Origin: Nitrosomonas europaea
GTDB taxonomy: Bacteria; Pseudomonadota; Gammaproteobacteria; Burkholderiales; Nitrosomonadaceae
Reading direction: 5' to 3'
DNA: 32,000 nt
Assembly (NCBI RefSeq): GCF_900167395.1
Contig: NZ_FUWK01000033.1
Coordinates: 864 to 32,863, forward strand
Shown: positions 1 through 15,563 of the stretch, piece by piece
How positions within the stretch are numbered: the first letter of the stretch is position 1
How the letters are laid out: every line of letters starts with the position of its first letter
Position numbers and translations under genes: made by a program
Notes under the pieces: generated by a model
What the model was told of the DNA's origin: nothing
The model's database searches: none
What the model saw: only the letters and a program-made list of their open reading frames with translations

Positions 1-185
1 GCTTGGGAGCGGCCTTTACTATCGACCGTGAGTTCATAGGTGACGAGTTCGTTTCCTTCTGGCCGGCGCTGCCGGCTGGAAAACGAGTTGATATGTACAA
101 AGATTTGCTCTCCGCCGCCGTTGGGTGTGACGAAGCCAAAGCCTTTGTCATCCTTCCACGTGGTAATTCGGCCTTGATAACGCAT
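1..185 (-). CDS. Cold-shock-domain (CSD/OB-fold) protein, N-terminal 61 codons only. The gene continues past the left window edge; a CSD+DUF1294-type architecture is likely.
   Basis: Not in the ORF track because it is partial and short. My reverse-complement translation from the ATG at 185-183 is MRYQGRITTWKDDKGFGFVTPNGGGEQIFVHINSFSSRQRRPEGNELVTYELTVDSKGRSQA. It has the KGFGFV (RNP1-like) and FVH (RNP2-like) motifs typical of cold-shock domains. No clear SD. Confidence 0.8.
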   Translation of the reverse strand, partial: MRYQGRITTWKDDKGFGFVTPNGGGEQIFVHINSFSSRQRRPEGNELVTYELTVDSKGRSQ

Positions 186-201
186 ATCGATTTGATGAGA
201 G

Positions 202-276
202 GGCTAACATCTAAATTCACCGGTGCGCCGCCGCAGCGCGTAGCGCGGAGGTGTCCGCCCCAACGGCTGGTTAGAT
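202..276 (-). repeat. attC-like imperfect GC-rich palindrome between the HEPN and CSD genes.
   Basis: Minus strand reads ATCTAAC (276-270, fits RYYYAAC), starting 1 nt after the HEPN stop. A GC-rich imperfect palindrome follows, then TTTAGAT (215-209) and GTTAGCC (208-202, one mismatch to GTTRRRY). ATCTAA can pair with TTAGAT. CAGCCG can pair with CGGTG with a bulged G. Confidence 0.35.
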
Positions 277-277
277 T

Positions 278-817
278 TCATTTTGTGATCTTGGCCTTTT
301 CGGTGGCAGCCACAAGCCCCTTTAGGAATCGGATTCCCTTCTCCAGCTCGTCGCGTTTAACTTTGTGGGGTTCGGCGCTTGCATGAAGAGCGGTGTTTGC
401 CTTATGGGCGGCGTCCCCGCGTTTAGCCACCAGTGAATCCAGCACTTTCTTCGAGGTGCTACTGTCGTAATTCTCCCACACCCAATCCTTGGTGATGTCC
501 ACGTCGAAGTAGTCGATAAAGATACGCCGGGTACGTTCATCATTTGGGTTGAAAAAACGCTTGAGATCTTCCTCAAGACGGCGCCGTACAAATTTTCCTA
601 GAGGGCTCCCTTCTACCGCTTGAAGCCACGTGTCAATCTCTGACTGGAGACGATCCTTAACGTAGGTTTCCCATGCCGCCAGTGCCATGACCAGTCCAGC
701 GCGCTTCAAGACTTCGCCGTTGTGGCCGTTTGGCACTGTCTTCTCCGCGTCGTGCCTCGCGAGGAGATCCTCAGCGTCTCGGATGGCTCTTTCGAATGCG
801 TCGAATGCTTTGGTCAT
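278..817 (-). CDS. HEPN-superfamily protein (possibly RiboL-PSP-HEPN-like), a putative RNase or toxin-type effector.
   Basis: 179-aa ORF. Rx4H motif R133-GDAA-H138 (AKRGDAAHK) lies in the C-terminal third of a predicted all-helical protein. No detectable SD. The ATG is 14 nt downstream of GTTAGAT. Confidence 0.6.
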   Translation of the reverse strand: MTKAFDAFERAIRDAEDLLARHDAEKTVPNGHNGEVLKRAGLVMALAAWETYVKDRLQSEIDTWLQAVEGSPLGKFVRRRLEEDLKRFFNPNDERTRRIFIDYFDVDITKDWVWENYDSSTSKKVLDSLVAKRGDAAHKANTALHASAEPHKVKRDELEKGIRFLKGLVAATEKAKITK

Positions 818-840
818 GGCTGGTAATGAAATCTAACGTT

Positions 841-862
841 TATGCACCGTAAACGGTGCATA
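841..862. repeat. Perfect 9-bp-stem palindrome (TATGCACCG-TAAA-CGGTGCATA) directly upstream of the GTTAGAT core site.
   Basis: Read directly from the sequence. It is followed on the + strand by CTTCTTTG. Function unknown; it could be a weak terminator or a recombination or protein-binding site. Confidence 0.5.
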
Positions 863-1147
863 CTTCTTTGTAAAAGGGTGTATAACAAAACTCATTATTC
901 AGTAAGGTTCTGAGTTAAAAAGAATTTAATAAATTAAATATCGCGATCTTCTGTTTTGATGACACCTTGCTCATTCGATCAGCTTCGCGGCAGCCTGCTA
1001 CTCTGAGCAGGAGAAAATCAGCTCCTTTAAAATTTCAGAAATGAGGTTTCAGGTATTTTGCTGCGTTTGCAGTTGATCTTAATCAGCGAGCAAAGGAGGA
1101 ATTATCTGTTTATTGCGGTGAGAATGAGGGTGACTGATATCCTGCCA

Positions 1148-1504
1148 TCAGCTTTCATCAAACGCGTTTCTGATCCATTCGATTTCATTTTCCCGGTTGC
1201 CACTGATCAGGACTGCATCGAAGCGGCAGGGAAAGTCACCTTCATGTCCCGCCAGATAATGACGGGCGGTGCGTATCAGTCTGGACTGCTTGGCAGCGGT
1301 GATGCTGGCGGCTGCGCCACCAAACCGGTCACTGGAGCGCATCCTGACTTCAACGAACACTACTGTATCGTCCTCCCGCATGATCAGGTCGATTTCACCG
1401 AAGCGGCAGCGGTAATTTTTTTCCAGCAACGTCAGTTTCTGCTGCTGGAGAAAGGCAGCGGCGCACTGCTCGGCATCACTGCCTTTGTTTCCTGCGGATG
1501 ACAT
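1148..1504 (-). CDS. yraN: YraN/UPF0102 family endonuclease-like protein.
   Basis: FGEIDLIMRE...VVFVEVRMR...GGAAASIT...CRFDAVLI matches the E. coli YraN pattern (GEIDLIMRE, VFVEVR, RFDVV). The ATG at 1504 is preferred over the TTG at 1528 used by the track. Confidence 0.85.
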   Translation of the reverse strand: MSSAGNKGSDAEQCAAAFLQQQKLTLLEKNYRCRFGEIDLIMREDDTVVFVEVRMRSSDRFGGAAASITAAKQSRLIRTARHYLAGHEGDFPCRFDAVLISGNRENEIEWIRNAFDES

Positions 1505-1610
1505 GGGAGTGTCAGTAACTATTGGCAAAGGGTTCTGGATTGTTTCATCCTTTCAGGATTCGCAAAGACAGTTTTTTACGGTTACGCACCACATTCGGAA
1601 GAATCCATTT

Positions 1611-11886: not shown

Positions 11887-12108
11887 TCGAAAAAATCGGA
11901 TTTGCATATAAATGTTTCTTGTTGCAGCCGGCTGATTGGCTGACAGTTTCAAATTTCCGATAAATATTTTTTCACGGCCGGGAAAGCATTCTCTGGTTTT
12001 CTACCCGGCCGACGCTTTCTGCCAGCTTTCGCCTGTTTTTTGCCAAGCCAGCCTCGTATTTCGATATTGCCAGCCAGACCCTGTTTTCGGTCCGCCAGCC
12101 CTTGGGTG

Positions 12109-12378
12109 GGAACCTCTGCACGAATCCCACATGGCCGCACACTGTGTTTTGCGGATGGAATGCAAGGCGAGTGAGGTAGTGAATGGTGACCCCTTCACGA
12201 CGAACTCAACGCTGCAGTCCGTCTGCAAAATCAGTGCCCTCAGGGTTGTGGCAAAATCACGCGCTCGCTGTGTCGTGCGCCTCGGCATCGTAGAATAACT
12301 ACGACCTTCGTTGCGCTCCTTGCGATCATCATGATTTTGCCCGCAATGCGGTTCATGGAGGATTCGTGCAGAGGTTCC
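12109..12378. mobile_element. 270-bp MITE-like element bounded by perfect 19-bp terminal inverted repeats.
   Basis: GGAACCTCTGCACGAATCC at 12109-12127 and its exact reverse complement at 12360-12378. Imperfect complementarity (CATG..CCGCA) extends about 12 nt inward. Nested internal hairpins. No convincing ORF. No obvious target-site duplication. Confidence 0.45.
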
Positions 12379-12434
12379 TTAAAAATCCGTCAGTACATGT
12401 CGTGCTGTCAGTTTAATTTCAGGAGCGTAATCGT

Positions 12435-13229: not shown

Positions 13230-14279
13230 TTGAACGACACAGCAGACAAGCTGACTTTTACCCGTCCGGATGACTGGCACCTGCATTTGCGTGACGGTAA
13301 CGCCATGCGGTCGGTGTTGCCCGATACCGCCCGGCGTTTTGCGCGCGCCATCATCATGCCGAACCTCAAGCCGCCCATCGTGACGACTGAACAGGCAGCT
13401 GCCTATCGTGTCCGTATTCTGTCTGCTTTACCGGCTGAGCTGGCCGGGCGGTTCGAGCCGCTGATGACGCTATACCTGACGGATACGACATCACCCGAAG
13501 AAATTACTCGGGCTCAGGCAAGTGGTATCGTGCAAGGTATCAAGCTCTACCCTGCTGGAGCGACCACACATTCCGATGCGGGTGTCACGGATATTGCACG
13601 CTGCGAGGCTACGCTGGAGAAGATGGAAGAGCTCGACATGCCTTTACTCGTGCATGGAGAAGTGGTCGATCCTGCAGTGGATGTTTTCGACCGGGAAAAA
13701 ATTTTCATTGACCGGGTACTGACGCCGCTACTGCAACGCTTTCCCGGGCTGCGAGTGGTATTCGAACATATCACTACCAGAGAGGCAGTCGAGTTTGTGC
13801 AGACGGCTCCAAACCGGATTGCTGCCACGATTACCGCACACCACCTGATGCTGAACCGGAATGCCCTGTTTACCGGCGGATTGCGTCCGCATCATTACTG
13901 TTTGCCGGTACTGAAACGGGAAATACATCGTCAGGCACTGCTGGAAGCAGCGACCAGCGGTCATTCCAGATTCTTCCTTGGTACCGACAGCGCACCACAT
14001 CCGGTCAGAGACAAAGAATCAGCCTGTGGGTGTGCGGGTATTTACAGTGCTCATGCAGCCATCGAATTTTATGCCGAGGTATTCGAACAGGCTGGCCGGC
14101 TCGATCGACTGGAGGCTTTTACCAGCTTTCACGGCCCCGATTTCTATGGTTTACCACGTAATACCGATCGGATTTCCCTGATCAGGGAAAGCTGGCAGAT
14201 TCCGGAGCAGGTCGAATTGGGTGAAGAAAAATTGATCCCCCTCAGAGCAGGGGAACACGCTCGCTGGAAACTGGCATGA
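13230..14279 (+). CDS. pyrC: Dihydroorotase, class II (E. coli PyrC type).
   Basis: FTRPDDWHLHLRDG matches E. coli RRPDDWHLHLRDG. 349 aa. There is no in-frame ATG. The TTG at 13230 has a GAGG SD. The track's TTG at 13209 lies in the hairpin loop and has no SD. Confidence 0.92.
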   Translation: MNDTADKLTFTRPDDWHLHLRDGNAMRSVLPDTARRFARAIIMPNLKPPIVTTEQAAAYRVRILSALPAELAGRFEPLMTLYLTDTTSPEEITRAQASGIVQGIKLYPAGATTHSDAGVTDIARCEATLEKMEELDMPLLVHGEVVDPAVDVFDREKIFIDRVLTPLLQRFPGLRVVFEHITTREAVEFVQTAPNRIAATITAHHLMLNRNALFTGGLRPHHYCLPVLKREIHRQALLEAATSGHSRFFLGTDSAPHPVRDKESACGCAGIYSAHAAIEFYAEVFEQAGRLDRLEAFTSFHGPDFYGLPRNTDRISLIRESWQIPEQVELGEEKLIPLRAGEHARWKLA

Positions 14280-14306
14280 ACCACTGTCGACCGGATACCG
14301 GGAAGA

Positions 14307-15563
14307 TCAACGGAAGGTGAGTGTGGCTTTGGTGCCACCGGATTCCAGACTGTCGATATCCAGGCGCCAGCCCAGATGAGCGCATGCCCGGGCGATCAGT
14401 TCGAGCCCAATGCCACCGGCTGCAGCGGAGCCAGCACGTGCAAGCTGTGTATAAATACGACTGCGTTCGCTTTCTGAAACACCATGCCCGGAATCCTGAA
14501 CGGTGACACCGGAACCGGTGGTGATCACACGAATCGTACCGTGCTCGCTGTTTTCAATCGCATTGCGGACAAGATTGCCGATGGTGGCACTCACAATCTG
14601 GCGAGGAGCGTGGATTGAACAAGGGGGCGTTGTGATGATGTCGAAAGCCAGTTCCTTTGATCCGGCCAGCAGCCGATGATCCTGGACGATGGAGGGTACC
14701 AGCTCAGCCAGGTCGACCAGTTCCATCATCGACTGCAGGCGTGCAGGGTCTCTGGCAAGAGCGAGGAGAAGTGTGACCAGATTCTGCATTTCGTGAGCCG
14801 TTGCCAGGATGCGGCGCAGGTGTGCTTCGGTTGAATGCGGTGATACCAGGGGGTCGAGTGCCACCTCGGCGGTACTGACGACCACGGCAAGCGGGGTGCG
14901 CAATTCGTGACTGGCCATGCGGATGAATTTGCGCTCGCGCTCCACGAAATCGTCGATCTGCACGAGATAGGAATTGAGCCTTTCAGCGATGACCTGGGCT
15001 TCTTTCGGGGCATGTGGTTCAATTTGTACACGCTGTCCGTTCTGATCGGGTGACAATTCTGCAATTGCTCGTGCAAGGCTGTTCAGCGGTCGTACCAGTC
15101 GTCTGGCACCGAAAATCGTAACCAGAACGAGGATACATACCAGTACAGCAGCGGATCCGAGAATCATCCAGATGAGCTGCCGTTCCACTCTTTCTATGTT
15201 CGTAATGTCCAGTGTCATCACACTGCGATCCGGGCCGATACCACTCGCCAGCACGACGAATTGTTTCTTTTCGACAGATATTCCGTCATGAACTCCTGCT
15301 GGCAGATCGAATTCTGCAGGAATGGGTGTATCGCTGCCTTTTCCAAAGAGTCGCAGCAGCTCCGTGTCATCCCATCGGTAACCGGCTTCGGTGCGCTGGC
15401 ATTCCAGGAAGTATTCGAACTCACTCCGCAGCAGTGACTCCCAGATAAGGTGTTCCACATTTTTGATCACGGTCACGCCGTAGGTTGCTATCCCGAGTGA
15501 AAGCAGCAGTGTGTACGCCAGCATTCCGAGCATGATCTGTCGTCGCAGGCTTTTGGTCGCCAT
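14307..15563 (-). CDS. Sensor histidine kinase (two TM helices, HAMP, HisKA, HATPase_c).
   Basis: H-box FIRMASHELRTPLAVV. N-box NLVRNAIENS. G-boxes QDSGHGV and GGIGLELI. The ATG at 15563 overlaps the response-regulator stop by 1 nt (TGATG). Confidence 0.9.
   Translation of the reverse strand: MATKSLRRQIMLGMLAYTLLLSLGIATYGVTVIKNVEHLIWESLLRSEFEYFLECQRTEAGYRWDDTELLRLFGKGSDTPIPAEFDLPAGVHDGISVEKKQFVVLASGIGPDRSVMTLDITNIERVERQLIWMILGSAAVLVCILVLVTIFGARRLVRPLNSLARAIAELSPDQNGQRVQIEPHAPKEAQVIAERLNSYLVQIDDFVERERKFIRMASHELRTPLAVVVSTAEVALDPLVSPHSTEAHLRRILATAHEMQNLVTLLLALARDPARLQSMMELVDLAELVPSIVQDHRLLAGSKELAFDIITTPPCSIHAPRQIVSATIGNLVRNAIENSEHGTIRVITTGSGVTVQDSGHGVSESERSRIYTQLARAGSAAAGGIGLELIARACAHLGWRLDIDSLESGGTKATLTFR

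What the first reader, a model, noticed from the sequence alone, without database searches (positions are those of the whole stretch)
186..862. HEPN gene sits in an integron-cassette-like unit with no integrase in view
On the coding (minus) strand, GTTAGAT (838-832, a perfect GTTRRRY core site) lies 14 nt before the HEPN ATG. ATCTAAC (276-270, a perfect RYYYAAC inverse core) starts 1 nt after its stop. It opens a 75-nt GC-rich imperfect palindrome that ends TTTAGAT-GTTAGCC (215-202). The next minus-strand gene (cold-shock domain) then starts 16 nt later. So two consecutive SD-less genes each begin just after a GTTAG core, separated by an attC-like site, which is the layout of an integron cassette array. 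The two boundaries of the HEPN unit form a perfect 13-nt inverted repeat: GTTAGATTTCATT at 270-282 and AATGAAATCTAAC at 825-837, each next to GGCTGG. The 300 bp upstream (841-1147) are AT-rich and non-coding and run straight into yraN. This would therefore be an integrase-less attC cluster (CALIN) or the decayed proximal end of a chromosomal integron.
Basis: partly seen in the sequence, partly recalled or inferred. Interest (0 to 1): 0.7.

Follow-up and report, generated by a model that had tools for sequence, protein, structure and literature searches.

The report
Integron cassette array lacking nearby integrase
The HEPN gene is a genuine mobile integron gene cassette. It sits at a conserved, integrase-less insertion site just downstream of yraN in Nitrosomonas europaea, and related strains carry a different cassette at that same site.

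Summary
The window is Nitrosomonas europaea ATCC 19718.

- **HEPN unit.** The HEPN (RiboL-PSP) gene at 278-817(-) lies in a 629-nt unit. The unit starts (G)TTAGAT and ends in a 75-nt element at 202-276(-).
- **attC test.** An attC covariance model built only from class 1 integron attC sites places a hit at exactly those coordinates. The score is weak (13.9 bits). A broader model that excludes the target gives 22.4 bits (E 0.0012), the only hit with E<1 in the window.
- **Neighbouring cassettes.** The next unit (CSD-DUF1294) starts TTAGCCC and has the complementary GGGCTAAC after its stop. A third cassette 4.7 kb to the left has a strong attC (39-58 bits).
- **The AT-rich spacer.** The 300 bp after yraN is a conserved module of about 300 bp found in several Nitrosomonas genomes and metagenome contigs. 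It always ends ...CGGTGCATA(C)-N3-5-GTTA. After that point 12 different sequences follow. In 9 of 12 cassettes next to this site, the attC R'' box is the exact reverse complement of the cassette's first seven bases. The module therefore behaves as an attI site.
- **Integrase.** No integrase lies within the 32-kb window or the 10 kb to its left.

Verdict: a CALIN-type cassette array with a preserved attI-like platform. It is a known kind of element with an interesting twist.

The parts
1148..1504 (-). yraN (UPF0102, 118 aa). This is the native chromosomal gene, next to the ABC transporter and rsmI. The cassette platform follows it.
   Evidence: Pfam PF02021, E 8e-30. The ABC-transporter-yraN synteny is kept in related Nitrosomonas loci.
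838..1140 (-). Conserved AT-rich attI-like module of about 300 bp, running from ATATCAGTCACC to ...CGGTGCATAAAC. Its left side is conserved across genomes and everything after its 3' end is variable.
   Evidence: It is 84-95% identical in a second N. europaea copy (L002 14164-14881), in L012, L013 and L014, and in metagenome loci L101-L107 and L112. Its left neighbours differ: yraN, a DUF853/yjgR-like gene, or IS remnants. Neither attC model scores it as an attC.
841..862 (.). Perfect 9-10-bp hairpin (GTATGCACCG TTTA CGGTGCATA on the minus strand), 3-5 nt before the crossover. The arm next to the crossover (CGGTGCATA) is invariant. The other arm mutates without compensation in L014.
   Evidence: It reads as terminator-like only on the + strand, that is, against the direction of the cassettes.
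831..837 (-). Core site GTTAGAT. G837 ends the attI-like module, and TTAGAT (836-831) is the first six bases of the HEPN cassette. This is the inferred G|TT crossover.
   Evidence: In 12 junctions the sequence is conserved up to GTTA and diverges afterwards. It is the exact reverse complement of the R'' box at 270-276.
208..836 (-). HEPN gene cassette, 629 nt: TTAGAT, a 13-nt leader, the ORF, then the attC up to the G of R'.
   Evidence: The boundaries come from the junction comparison and the attC hit. Homologues that are 74-78% identical at the DNA level in Methylomonas and Verrucomicrobiales keep the leader and the R'' core.
278..817 (-). HEPN_RiboL-PSP gene (179 aa), a predicted HEPN RNase. 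It has no Shine-Dalgarno sequence and no promoter of its own.
   Evidence: Pfam PF18735, 79 bits. The Rx4H motif is invariant. Homologues that are 56-89% identical occur across phyla. No sigma-70-like promoter was found.
202..276 (-). attC site of the HEPN cassette, 75 nt.
- R'' is ATCTAAC.
- The L box is GTT(G)GGGCGG / CCGGTGAAT, with one extrahelical base and two mismatches.
- R' is GTTAGCC, a hybrid whose TTAGCC belongs to the next cassette.

It is a weak, partly degenerate site.
   Evidence: R1 gives 13.9 bits and R2 gives 22.4 bits (E 0.0012) at exactly these coordinates and on this strand. It is not a dispersed repeat.
1..207 (-). Start of the second cassette (TTAGCCC...), encoding a CSD-DUF1294 protein. 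The coding sequence starts at 185 and runs off the window. The full gene is 204 aa, at L002 10633-11247.
   Evidence: Pfam CSD and CSD+DUF1294. GGGCTAAC, complementary to the start GTTAGCCC, lies directly after its stop at L002 11248. The element at its 3' end is not recognised by either attC model.

Best explanation
**What it is.** The HEPN gene is an integron gene cassette. It is the first cassette of a small chromosomal array in Nitrosomonas europaea that has no adjacent integrase (a CALIN-type array).

**Shown.**
- The roughly 300-bp AT-rich segment after yraN is a conserved module that behaves as an attI site.
- Different promoterless units have been joined to it at the same G|TTA position in different strains and species.
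- Most of these units end in an attC site whose R'' box is the reverse complement of the unit's first seven bases.

**Inferred.**
- Each unit was a circular cassette. An integron integrase (IntI) acting in trans recombined the folded bottom strand of its attC with this attI-like site. N. europaea is reported to encode an active IntI elsewhere in its genome.
- The cassettes lack their own promoter and Shine-Dalgarno sequence. They are probably transcribed from the module or by read-through from yraN.
- The HEPN protein keeps the Rx4H RNase motif and is probably a toxin or defence-type RNase.
- The HEPN attC is partly decayed, and the 3' element of the CSD cassette more so. These two cassettes may therefore now move rarely or not at all.
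For: 1. **attC model on the target.** The model R1 was built from 8 class 1 attC sites only. It hits window 202-276(-) at exactly the predicted coordinates and strand. The score is 13.9 bits (E 0.044 in a 5.9-kb region with filters off). In 1.09 Mb of other yraN loci only 2 hits score at least as high. Model R2 (22 sites, target excluded) gives 22.4 bits, E 0.0012, the only hit with E<1 in the window.
2. **Strong attCs in the same arrays.** Examples are L002 15353-15410 (39 and 58 bits), L013 11161-11218, L014 18522-18581, L101 2760-2819 and L112 12117-12175 (60-71 bits).
3. **Junction signature.** The conserved module ends ...CGGTGCATA(C)N3-5GTTA and is followed by 12 unrelated sequences.
4. 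**Covariation.** R'' equals the reverse complement of the cassette's starting core at 7 of 7 positions in 9 of 12 cassettes. The variable positions differ between cassettes (GAT, GGT, GGC, GGA, GCC, GAC, TGC).
5. **Cassette mobility.** HEPN homologues that are 75-89% identical occur in Methylomonas, Verrucomicrobiales, Zhongshania and Mucilaginibacter. In Methylomonas the gene sits just before an attC of 35.7 bits. DNA similarity to the N. europaea cassette runs from the 13-nt leader to the R'' core.
6. **No integrase nearby.** No IntI or other tyrosine recombinase lies in the window, in L002 or in the related Nitrosomonas loci.
Against: - The HEPN attC is a weak match: two L-box mismatches, a branched fold rather than a simple hairpin, and z only -1.6 as it stands in the array.
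- Neither model recognises the 3' element of the CSD cassette as an attC, even in the IS-free version in L109.
- No promoter-like site was found in the module.
- IntI binding or recombination at the module has not been tested.
- The position of intI in this genome, and any similarity between its own attI and this module, could not be examined.
- The two model-supported attC sites are 4.7 kb apart in ATCC 19718. That exceeds the 4-kb clustering rule used to call a CALIN. The gap is about 2.9 kb without the two IS elements.
Confidence: 0.85

Rival explanations
1. The array is a dead relic. An ancestral integron next to yraN lost its intI, and the cassettes seen today are frozen remnants. The attI-like module is no longer used.
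For: No intI lies within 10 kb in any locus. The HEPN attC and the CSD 3' element are degenerate. IS elements have inserted into the array. L072 shows that an intI can sit directly beside yraN in another lineage.
Against: Twelve different first cassettes sit at one junction, in genomes whose module copies are still 84-95% identical. This implies repeated recent insertions. Many neighbouring attCs are intact at 45-71 bits. The species is reported to have an active IntI (title cited).
Confidence: 0.25
2. The cassettes were inserted by IntI at an accidental secondary site (a simple GTT/GWT site) in ordinary intergenic DNA after yraN, not at a dedicated attI.
For: IntI-mediated insertion at secondary sites is one recognised origin of CALINs (Cury et al. 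2016). The only shared core is GTTA.
Against: At least 12 different cassettes use the same base position. The 300-bp left flank is conserved about as well as the yraN coding sequence. It has also been copied to other places, with yraN copy 2, yjgR or IS remnants as left neighbour, and cassettes follow it each time.
Confidence: 0.07
3. yraN plus the spacer is itself a large cassette. The hairpin-GTTAG end would be its unusual attC, which would explain why different cassettes follow it.
For: In N. europaea copy 2 and in L112 and L104 the module lies inside arrays, with attC sites upstream as well. The module ends in a hairpin next to GTTAG.
Against: Both attC models score the module end at noise level (at most 7 bits, and no hit with E<=10 in R2). 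No R'' partner or cassette-type left boundary is visible. The hairpin's left arm mutates without compensation in L014. The module occurs without yraN (L014, L101, L103, L104, L107). yraN copy 1 is in its native chromosomal context.
Confidence: 0.05
4. There is nothing special here. The 75-nt GC-rich element is an ordinary intergenic palindrome or terminator, and the core-site matches are chance.
For: The fold is weak in place (z -1.6 and -0.27). Rfam has no match.
Against: The model hits at exactly the predicted coordinates. There is a 13-nt perfect complement between the unit's start and its R''. The same rule holds in 9 of 12 neighbouring cassettes. The locus is variable among relatives. The element is not a dispersed repeat.
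Confidence: 0.02

Closest known systems
CALIN (cluster of attC sites lacking integron integrase; Cury et al. 2016, PMC4889954)
   Same: It is an array of promoterless cassettes with attC sites, all in one orientation. No intI or intI pseudogene lies within 10 kb. IS elements sit in the array. The genome is reported to encode an IntI elsewhere.
   Different: This array keeps a conserved, duplicated attI-like platform at its head, with a different first cassette in different strains. The two model-supported attCs are 4.7 kb apart in ATCC 19718, just over the 4-kb clustering rule, because two IS elements lie between them.
attI site of a complete integron (for example attI1 of class 1 integrons)
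   Same: The left side is conserved and the right side variable, joined at G|TTRRRY. The first cassette's six leading bases complement its own R''. A GTTA-containing repeat (GTTATAC) lies about 50 nt upstream of the crossover, in the position where attI1 has its direct repeats. That comparison is from memory and was not tested.
   Different: No divergently transcribed intI is adjacent. There is no detectable sequence similarity to attI1. The site occurs in two copies per genome in N. europaea and in contig WBZY01000054.1. A perfect hairpin abuts the crossover.
Class 1 integron cassettes (aadA1, aadB, blaVIM-2 and others)
   Same: The attC architecture (R''-spacer-L''...L'-spacer-R') is shared. 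Related Nitrosomonas cassettes score 40-60 bits with a model built only from class 1 sites. For example, L014 TCCTAACAATTCAATTCAGCCGAC...CGGCTGATTTCAAGCGTTAGAT closely resembles the aadA1 attC.
   Different: The cargo is not antibiotic resistance. It is HEPN, CSD-DUF1294, toxin-antitoxin pairs and unknown ORFs. The HEPN attC itself is a weak member.
Chromosomal integron of Nitrosomonas europaea (Leon & Roy 2003, J Bacteriol 185:2036; known to me by title and citations only)
   Same: Same organism. It would be the source of the integrase that could service this array in trans.
   Different: That intI is not within the 42 kb examined here. A group IIC-attC intron of this genome is listed next to NP_842195 (ampG). 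From the accession number I infer that this lies far from this locus. Whether this yraN-linked array was described in that paper could not be checked.
RiboL-PSP HEPN proteins (Pfam PF18735)
   Same: Full-length match (79 bits) and a conserved Rx4H motif.
   Different: It is a stand-alone cassette gene with no adjacent antitoxin-like partner. It has no match in PADLOC defence models.

Membership tests
Integron attC site | R'' (RYYYAAC) at the 5' end and R' (GTTRRRY) at the 3' end on the cassette's coding strand, 50-150 nt apart | tested here: met
   ATCTAAC at 276-270 and GTTAGCC at 208-202, spanning 75 nt. R' departs from the consensus at one base (C at position 6).
Integron attC site | Match to an attC covariance model that scores sequence and R/L-box pairing together | tested here: met
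   The class-1-only model R1 gives 13.9 bits (E 0.044 in 5.9 kb; E 1.5 in 195 kb). This is weak, but it falls at the exact coordinates. Model R2, with the target excluded, gives 22.4 bits, E 0.0012. The IntegronFinder model itself was not available.
Integron attC site | L box with an extrahelical base, and an imperfect single hairpin on the bottom strand | tested here: inconclusive
   The model alignment gives GTT(G)GGGCGG/CCGGTGAAT, with one bulged G and two non-pairs. The minimum-energy folds are branched. z is -1.6 and -0.27 in place, and -4.8 and -3.5 with the cassette's own R' restored.
Integron gene cassette | The first bases of the cassette (TTRRRY) complement its own R''. This is the signature of G|TT recombination of a circular cassette. 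| tested here: met
   HEPN: a 13-nt perfect complement. CSD: GTTAGCCC/GGGCTAAC. The match is 7 of 7 in 9 of 12 cassettes at this platform.
Integron gene cassette | A single promoterless ORF followed directly by the attC | tested here: met
   A 13-nt leader without a Shine-Dalgarno sequence. The attC starts 2 nt after the stop. No promoter-like site was found.
Integron gene cassette | Excision and integration by IntI | not testable with these tools
   This needs a recombination assay, or PCR for circular cassettes.
CALIN | At least two attC sites clustered (within 4 kb) and no intI nearby | tested here: inconclusive
   Two model-supported attCs lie at L002 10542-10616 and 15353-15410. They are 4.7 kb apart in ATCC 19718, and about 2.9 kb apart without the two IS elements, as in L109. 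No IntI lies in the window or in L002.
Complete integron | An intI gene adjacent to attI and the cassette array | tested here: not met
   tblastn with IntI1 found nothing in the window, L001-L014 or L100-L113. The query was verified as 100% identical to plasmid intI1.
attI site | A conserved sequence on the integrase side and variable cassettes on the other, joined at G|TTRRRY | tested here: met
   Twelve distinct right-hand sequences follow the conserved ...CGGTGCATA(C)N3-5GTTA.
attI site | Bound and recombined by its cognate IntI | not testable with these tools
The N. europaea intI locus could not be fetched for comparison.
HEPN (RiboL-PSP) RNase | Pfam PF18735 match above the curated cut-off, and the Rx4-6H motif | tested here: met
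   79 bits against a cut-off of 28.4. R133-x4-H138 is invariant in 9 aligned homologues.

The most novel reading that the evidence does not exclude
Nitrosomonas of the europaea/eutropha group carry a self-contained, integrase-less 'attI platform'. It is a module of about 300 bp that has been copied to several chromosomal places: after yraN, after a second yraN copy inside the array, and after yjgR. It keeps acquiring cassettes through an IntI encoded far away. In effect this would be a split integron with several attI sites.

A more speculative extension concerns YraN. It is a predicted Holliday-junction-resolvase-like nuclease. It is linked to the platform here and lies directly beside intI in an unrelated MAG (L072). 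It might take part in processing cassette recombination intermediates.
Probability: 0.4. Interest if true: 0.65.

Novelty: new member of a known kind. Interest (0 to 1): 0.5.

Why it matters
**Value of the locus.**
- It is a clean natural example of integron cassettes being collected at a site with no integrase beside it. The origin and activity of CALINs are open questions (Cury et al. 2016).
- One conserved module carries a dozen different first cassettes across closely related strains. It therefore offers a directly testable case of trans-acting cassette capture and of attI duplication.

**Annotation consequences.**
- The HEPN RNase and the CSD-DUF1294 protein should be regarded as horizontally mobile cargo, not core genes of an ammonia oxidiser that is widely used as a model.

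**Limits on the claim.**
- The cassette itself is ordinary integron biology.
- N. europaea is already known to have an integron integrase.

Tried and rejected
- **Rfam.** An E-value-mode scan of 1-1600 gave only noise. Rfam seems to hold no attC family.
- **Folding alone.** Folding 195-285 on its own is not convincing. I did not rely on it.
- **Promoter scan.** No sigma-70-like site was found in 150-1600, so the promoter driving the cassettes remains unidentified.
- **PADLOC.** No defence-system match for the HEPN protein.
- **CSD cassette 3' element.** The element (L002 11248-11336) was not detected by either attC model, even in the IS-free contig L109. I call it a probable decayed attC only because of the R''/start complement.
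- **Contig L005.** It seemed to show the HEPN cassette behind yraN copy 2. It is a copy-2/copy-1 recombinant or an assembly chimera that switches inside a 55-nt identical stretch. I treated it as uninformative.
- **Literature.** The Leon & Roy 2003 and 2009 papers are not held. The supplements of the IntegronFinder paper are not held either. I could not learn where intI lies in this genome, or whether this array was reported before.
- **N. europaea in the genome collection.** The species itself did not appear among the genome-contig hits. Its intI locus could not be fetched.
- **IntI protein search.** I judged a homologue search with IntI1 unlikely to surface the N. europaea protein among the 120 best hits, so I did not spend it.
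- **Other HEPN contexts.** The Zhongshania (L117) and Vibrio (L118) loci show no attC, so not every homologue is still in a cassette.

Full report
**Where the window comes from.** The 179-aa HEPN protein is encoded with an identical sequence on AL954747.1, the Nitrosomonas europaea ATCC 19718 chromosome. Locus L002 is 763,820-784,359 of that record, reversed, and window position x equals L002 position 10,818 - x. I infer that the window is about 773,543-805,542 of that record.

**Checking the observation.**
- The sequence and Pfam confirm three genes on the minus strand: HEPN_RiboL-PSP at 278-817, a cold-shock-domain gene starting at 185, and yraN at 1148-1504.
- ATCTAAC lies at 276-270, 2 nt after the HEPN stop. 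TTTAGAT-GTTAGCC lies at 215-202. The CSD ATG is 16 nt further on.
- The 13-nt perfect inverted repeat 270-282/825-837 exists, and such repeats are rare in this window.
- Slips: the upstream GTTAGAT is at 837-831, not 838-832, and it is 13 nt, not 14 nt, from the ATG. GTTAGCC is one base off GTTRRRY.
- As a free-standing hairpin the 75-nt element is unimpressive (z -1.6 and -0.27). Rfam has nothing for it.

**The wider locus.** In the direction of the cassettes, to the left of the window, L002 reads as follows:
- ABC transporter, then yraN-1, then a 300-bp AT-rich spacer
- the HEPN unit, then the CSD-DUF1294 unit
- an IS5-like element, then an IS481-like element
- YoeB-YefM (reverse strand), then an 84-aa fragment
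- yraN-2, then a second copy of the spacer
- a 165-aa ORF, then an IS, then type II secretion genes

The yraN+spacer segment is duplicated: L002 9257-9977 against 14164-14881, 90-95% identical. Both copies end at a perfect hairpin, then 3-5 nt, then GTTAG. After that point the two copies are unrelated.

A metagenome contig (L109) is the IS-free form of the same array. It shows that both IS elements of ATCC 19718 sit in a single CTAG.

**An independent attC test.**
- I recovered nine class 1 integron attC sites from plasmids.
- Eight of these sites were used to build covariance model R1, with the R-box and L-box pairs specified.
- In 195 kb R1 found four sites: L014 18522-18581 (44.6 bits), L002 15353-15410 (39.2 bits, the 165-aa cassette), L013 11161-11218 (31.9 bits), and window 202-276(-) (13.9 bits).
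- With filters off over 5.9 kb the window hit has E 0.044. In 1.09 Mb of 71 other yraN loci only two hits reach 13.9 bits.
- Model R2 was rebuilt from the 22 sites with E<=0.001, none of them the target. It scores the HEPN site at 22.4 bits, E 0.0012 in 52.5 kb with filters off. That is the only hit with E<1 in the window.
- The site is therefore a recognisable but weak attC, with two L-box mismatches and a hybrid R'.
- The element after CSD-DUF1294 (L002 11248-11336) is not detected by either model, even uninterrupted in L109. It does begin GGGCTAAC, the complement of that cassette's start GTTAGCCC.

**The AT-rich 300 bp is a conserved insertion platform.**
- Relatives fetched through YraN show that the spacer is about 84% identical in an uncultured Nitrosomonas (L012) and in N. 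eutropha Nm24 (L013).
- In Nitrosomonas sp. HPC101 (L014) it lies 7.4 kb away from yraN. In L011 it follows a yraN fragment and is truncated.
- A metagenome scan for the hairpin added L101-L105, L107 and L112.
- In the copies that reach the junction (L011 stops before the hairpin), the sequence is conserved up to ...CGGTGCATA(C)-TRAAC-GTTA and then diverges completely. Twelve different continuations were seen.
- Downstream lie attC sites of 25-71 bits.
- In 9 of 12 cassettes the R'' box is the exact reverse complement of the seven bases at the cassette's start, and the variable positions differ from cassette to cassette. This covariation is the expected product of G|TT recombination between a circular cassette and an attI site.
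- The module's left neighbour varies: native yraN, yraN copy 2, a DUF853/yjgR-like gene, or IS remnants. The module, not yraN, is therefore the constant partner of the cassettes.
- The hairpin arm next to the crossover is invariant. The other arm mutates without compensation in L014. This points to a protein-binding sequence more than to a required hairpin. That is an inference.
- The module end does not score as an attC.

**No integrase.** tblastn with IntI1 finds no homologue in the window, in L001-L014, or in the metagenome loci that carry the module. The one IntI found (L072, 59% identical to IntI1) is in an unrelated MAG. There it lies 11 nt upstream of that organism's native yraN-diaA-BON operon, and no attC follows it. 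The existence of an active IntI in N. europaea rests on the title of Leon & Roy 2003 as cited. The paper itself is not held.

**The cargo.**
- The HEPN protein keeps an invariant R133-x4-H138 motif and has no PADLOC match.
- Homologues that are 75-89% identical occur in Methylomonas, Verrucomicrobiales, Methylobacter, Zhongshania and Mucilaginibacter. This patchy spread is typical of cassette genes.
- In Methylomonas (L115) the gene is followed, after a 30-nt gap, by an alpha/beta-hydrolase gene and then an attC of 35.7 bits. DNA similarity to the N. europaea cassette starts in the 13-nt leader and runs to the R'' core after the stop.
- In the Verrucomicrobiales MAG the similarity continues through R'' and the CAGCC spacer.
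- Other homologues (Zhongshania, Vibrio) have no attC nearby.

**Interpretation.**
- Shown: cassette-type boundaries, an attC at the predicted place, further cassettes, a conserved attI-like junction with many different first cassettes, and no integrase nearby.
- Inferred: IntI supplied in trans performs the insertions. The cassettes are expressed from the module or from yraN. The HEPN and CSD cassettes are partly decayed.
- The main rival is a dead relic of an integron that lost its intI. It fits the degenerate sites and the IS elements, but not the diversity of first cassettes behind nearly identical modules.
- The secondary-site, 'yraN is itself a cassette' and chance explanations are each contradicted by specific results.

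**Comparison with known systems and novelty.** In the terms of Cury et al. 2016 this is a CALIN in a genome that encodes IntI elsewhere. It is a known and common kind of element. The less usual part is the preserved, duplicated attI-like platform without an adjacent integrase. I could not establish whether the array was described in the 2003 paper. I score it as a new member of a known kind, interest 0.5. The split, multi-attI reading is the most novel case not excluded.

Noticed in passing
L002 9257-9977 and 14164-14881 (window 841-1561 is copy 1): yraN plus the attI-like spacer is duplicated within 5 kb at 90-95% identity. Each copy heads a different cassette. Contig WBZY01000054.1 (L101, L102) also has two module copies.
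   Followed up: partly
L072 246-1573: In an unrelated Pseudomonadota MAG, an integron integrase (59% identical to IntI1) lies 11 nt upstream of the native yraN-diaA-BON operon, on the same strand. This is a second, independent yraN-integron adjacency. No attC was found downstream.
   Followed up: partly
L002 11333-13158 (left of the window); IS-free form in L109: Two IS elements, one IS5-like with DDE_Tnp_1 and one IS481-like with rve, are inserted back to back in a single CTAG at the R' end of the CSD cassette's 3' element. L109 shows the uninterrupted GGTTAACTAGCACG.
   Followed up: yes
window 841-862: The perfect hairpin next to the crossover reads as a terminator-like site only on the + strand, that is, against cassette transcription. 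Its crossover-side arm is invariant. The other arm changes without compensation in L014.
   Followed up: partly
window 12108-12379: An intergenic element of about 270 nt is bounded by perfect 19-20-nt inverted repeats (GGGAACCTCTGCACGAATCC / GGATTCGTGCAGAGGTTCC) and looks MITE-like. The same repeat pair occurs 38 nt apart in L011 4403-4459.
   Followed up: no
L115 6001-7521 (Methylomonas methanica): An HEPN homologue (89% identical) and an alpha/beta-hydrolase gene are separated by 30 nt and share one attC (35.7 bits). This looks like a fused two-gene cassette in which the HEPN attC was lost, leaving only GTCTAAT.
   Followed up: partly
L112 5400-10900 and L104 1-2650: Upstream of the module these contigs carry runs of toxin-antitoxin pairs (Phd/ParE-like, MazEF-like, RES-Xre-like, BrnT/BrnA-like, YoeB-YefM), some followed by attC sites. 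The family names are my reading of the ORF translations and were not tested. The platform can lie inside a larger, TA-rich array.
   Followed up: no
L005: A metagenome contig joins the yraN copy-2 left flank to the copy-1 spacer and the HEPN cassette. The switch falls in a 55-nt identical stretch. It is either homologous recombination between the two copies or an assembly chimera.
   Followed up: yes
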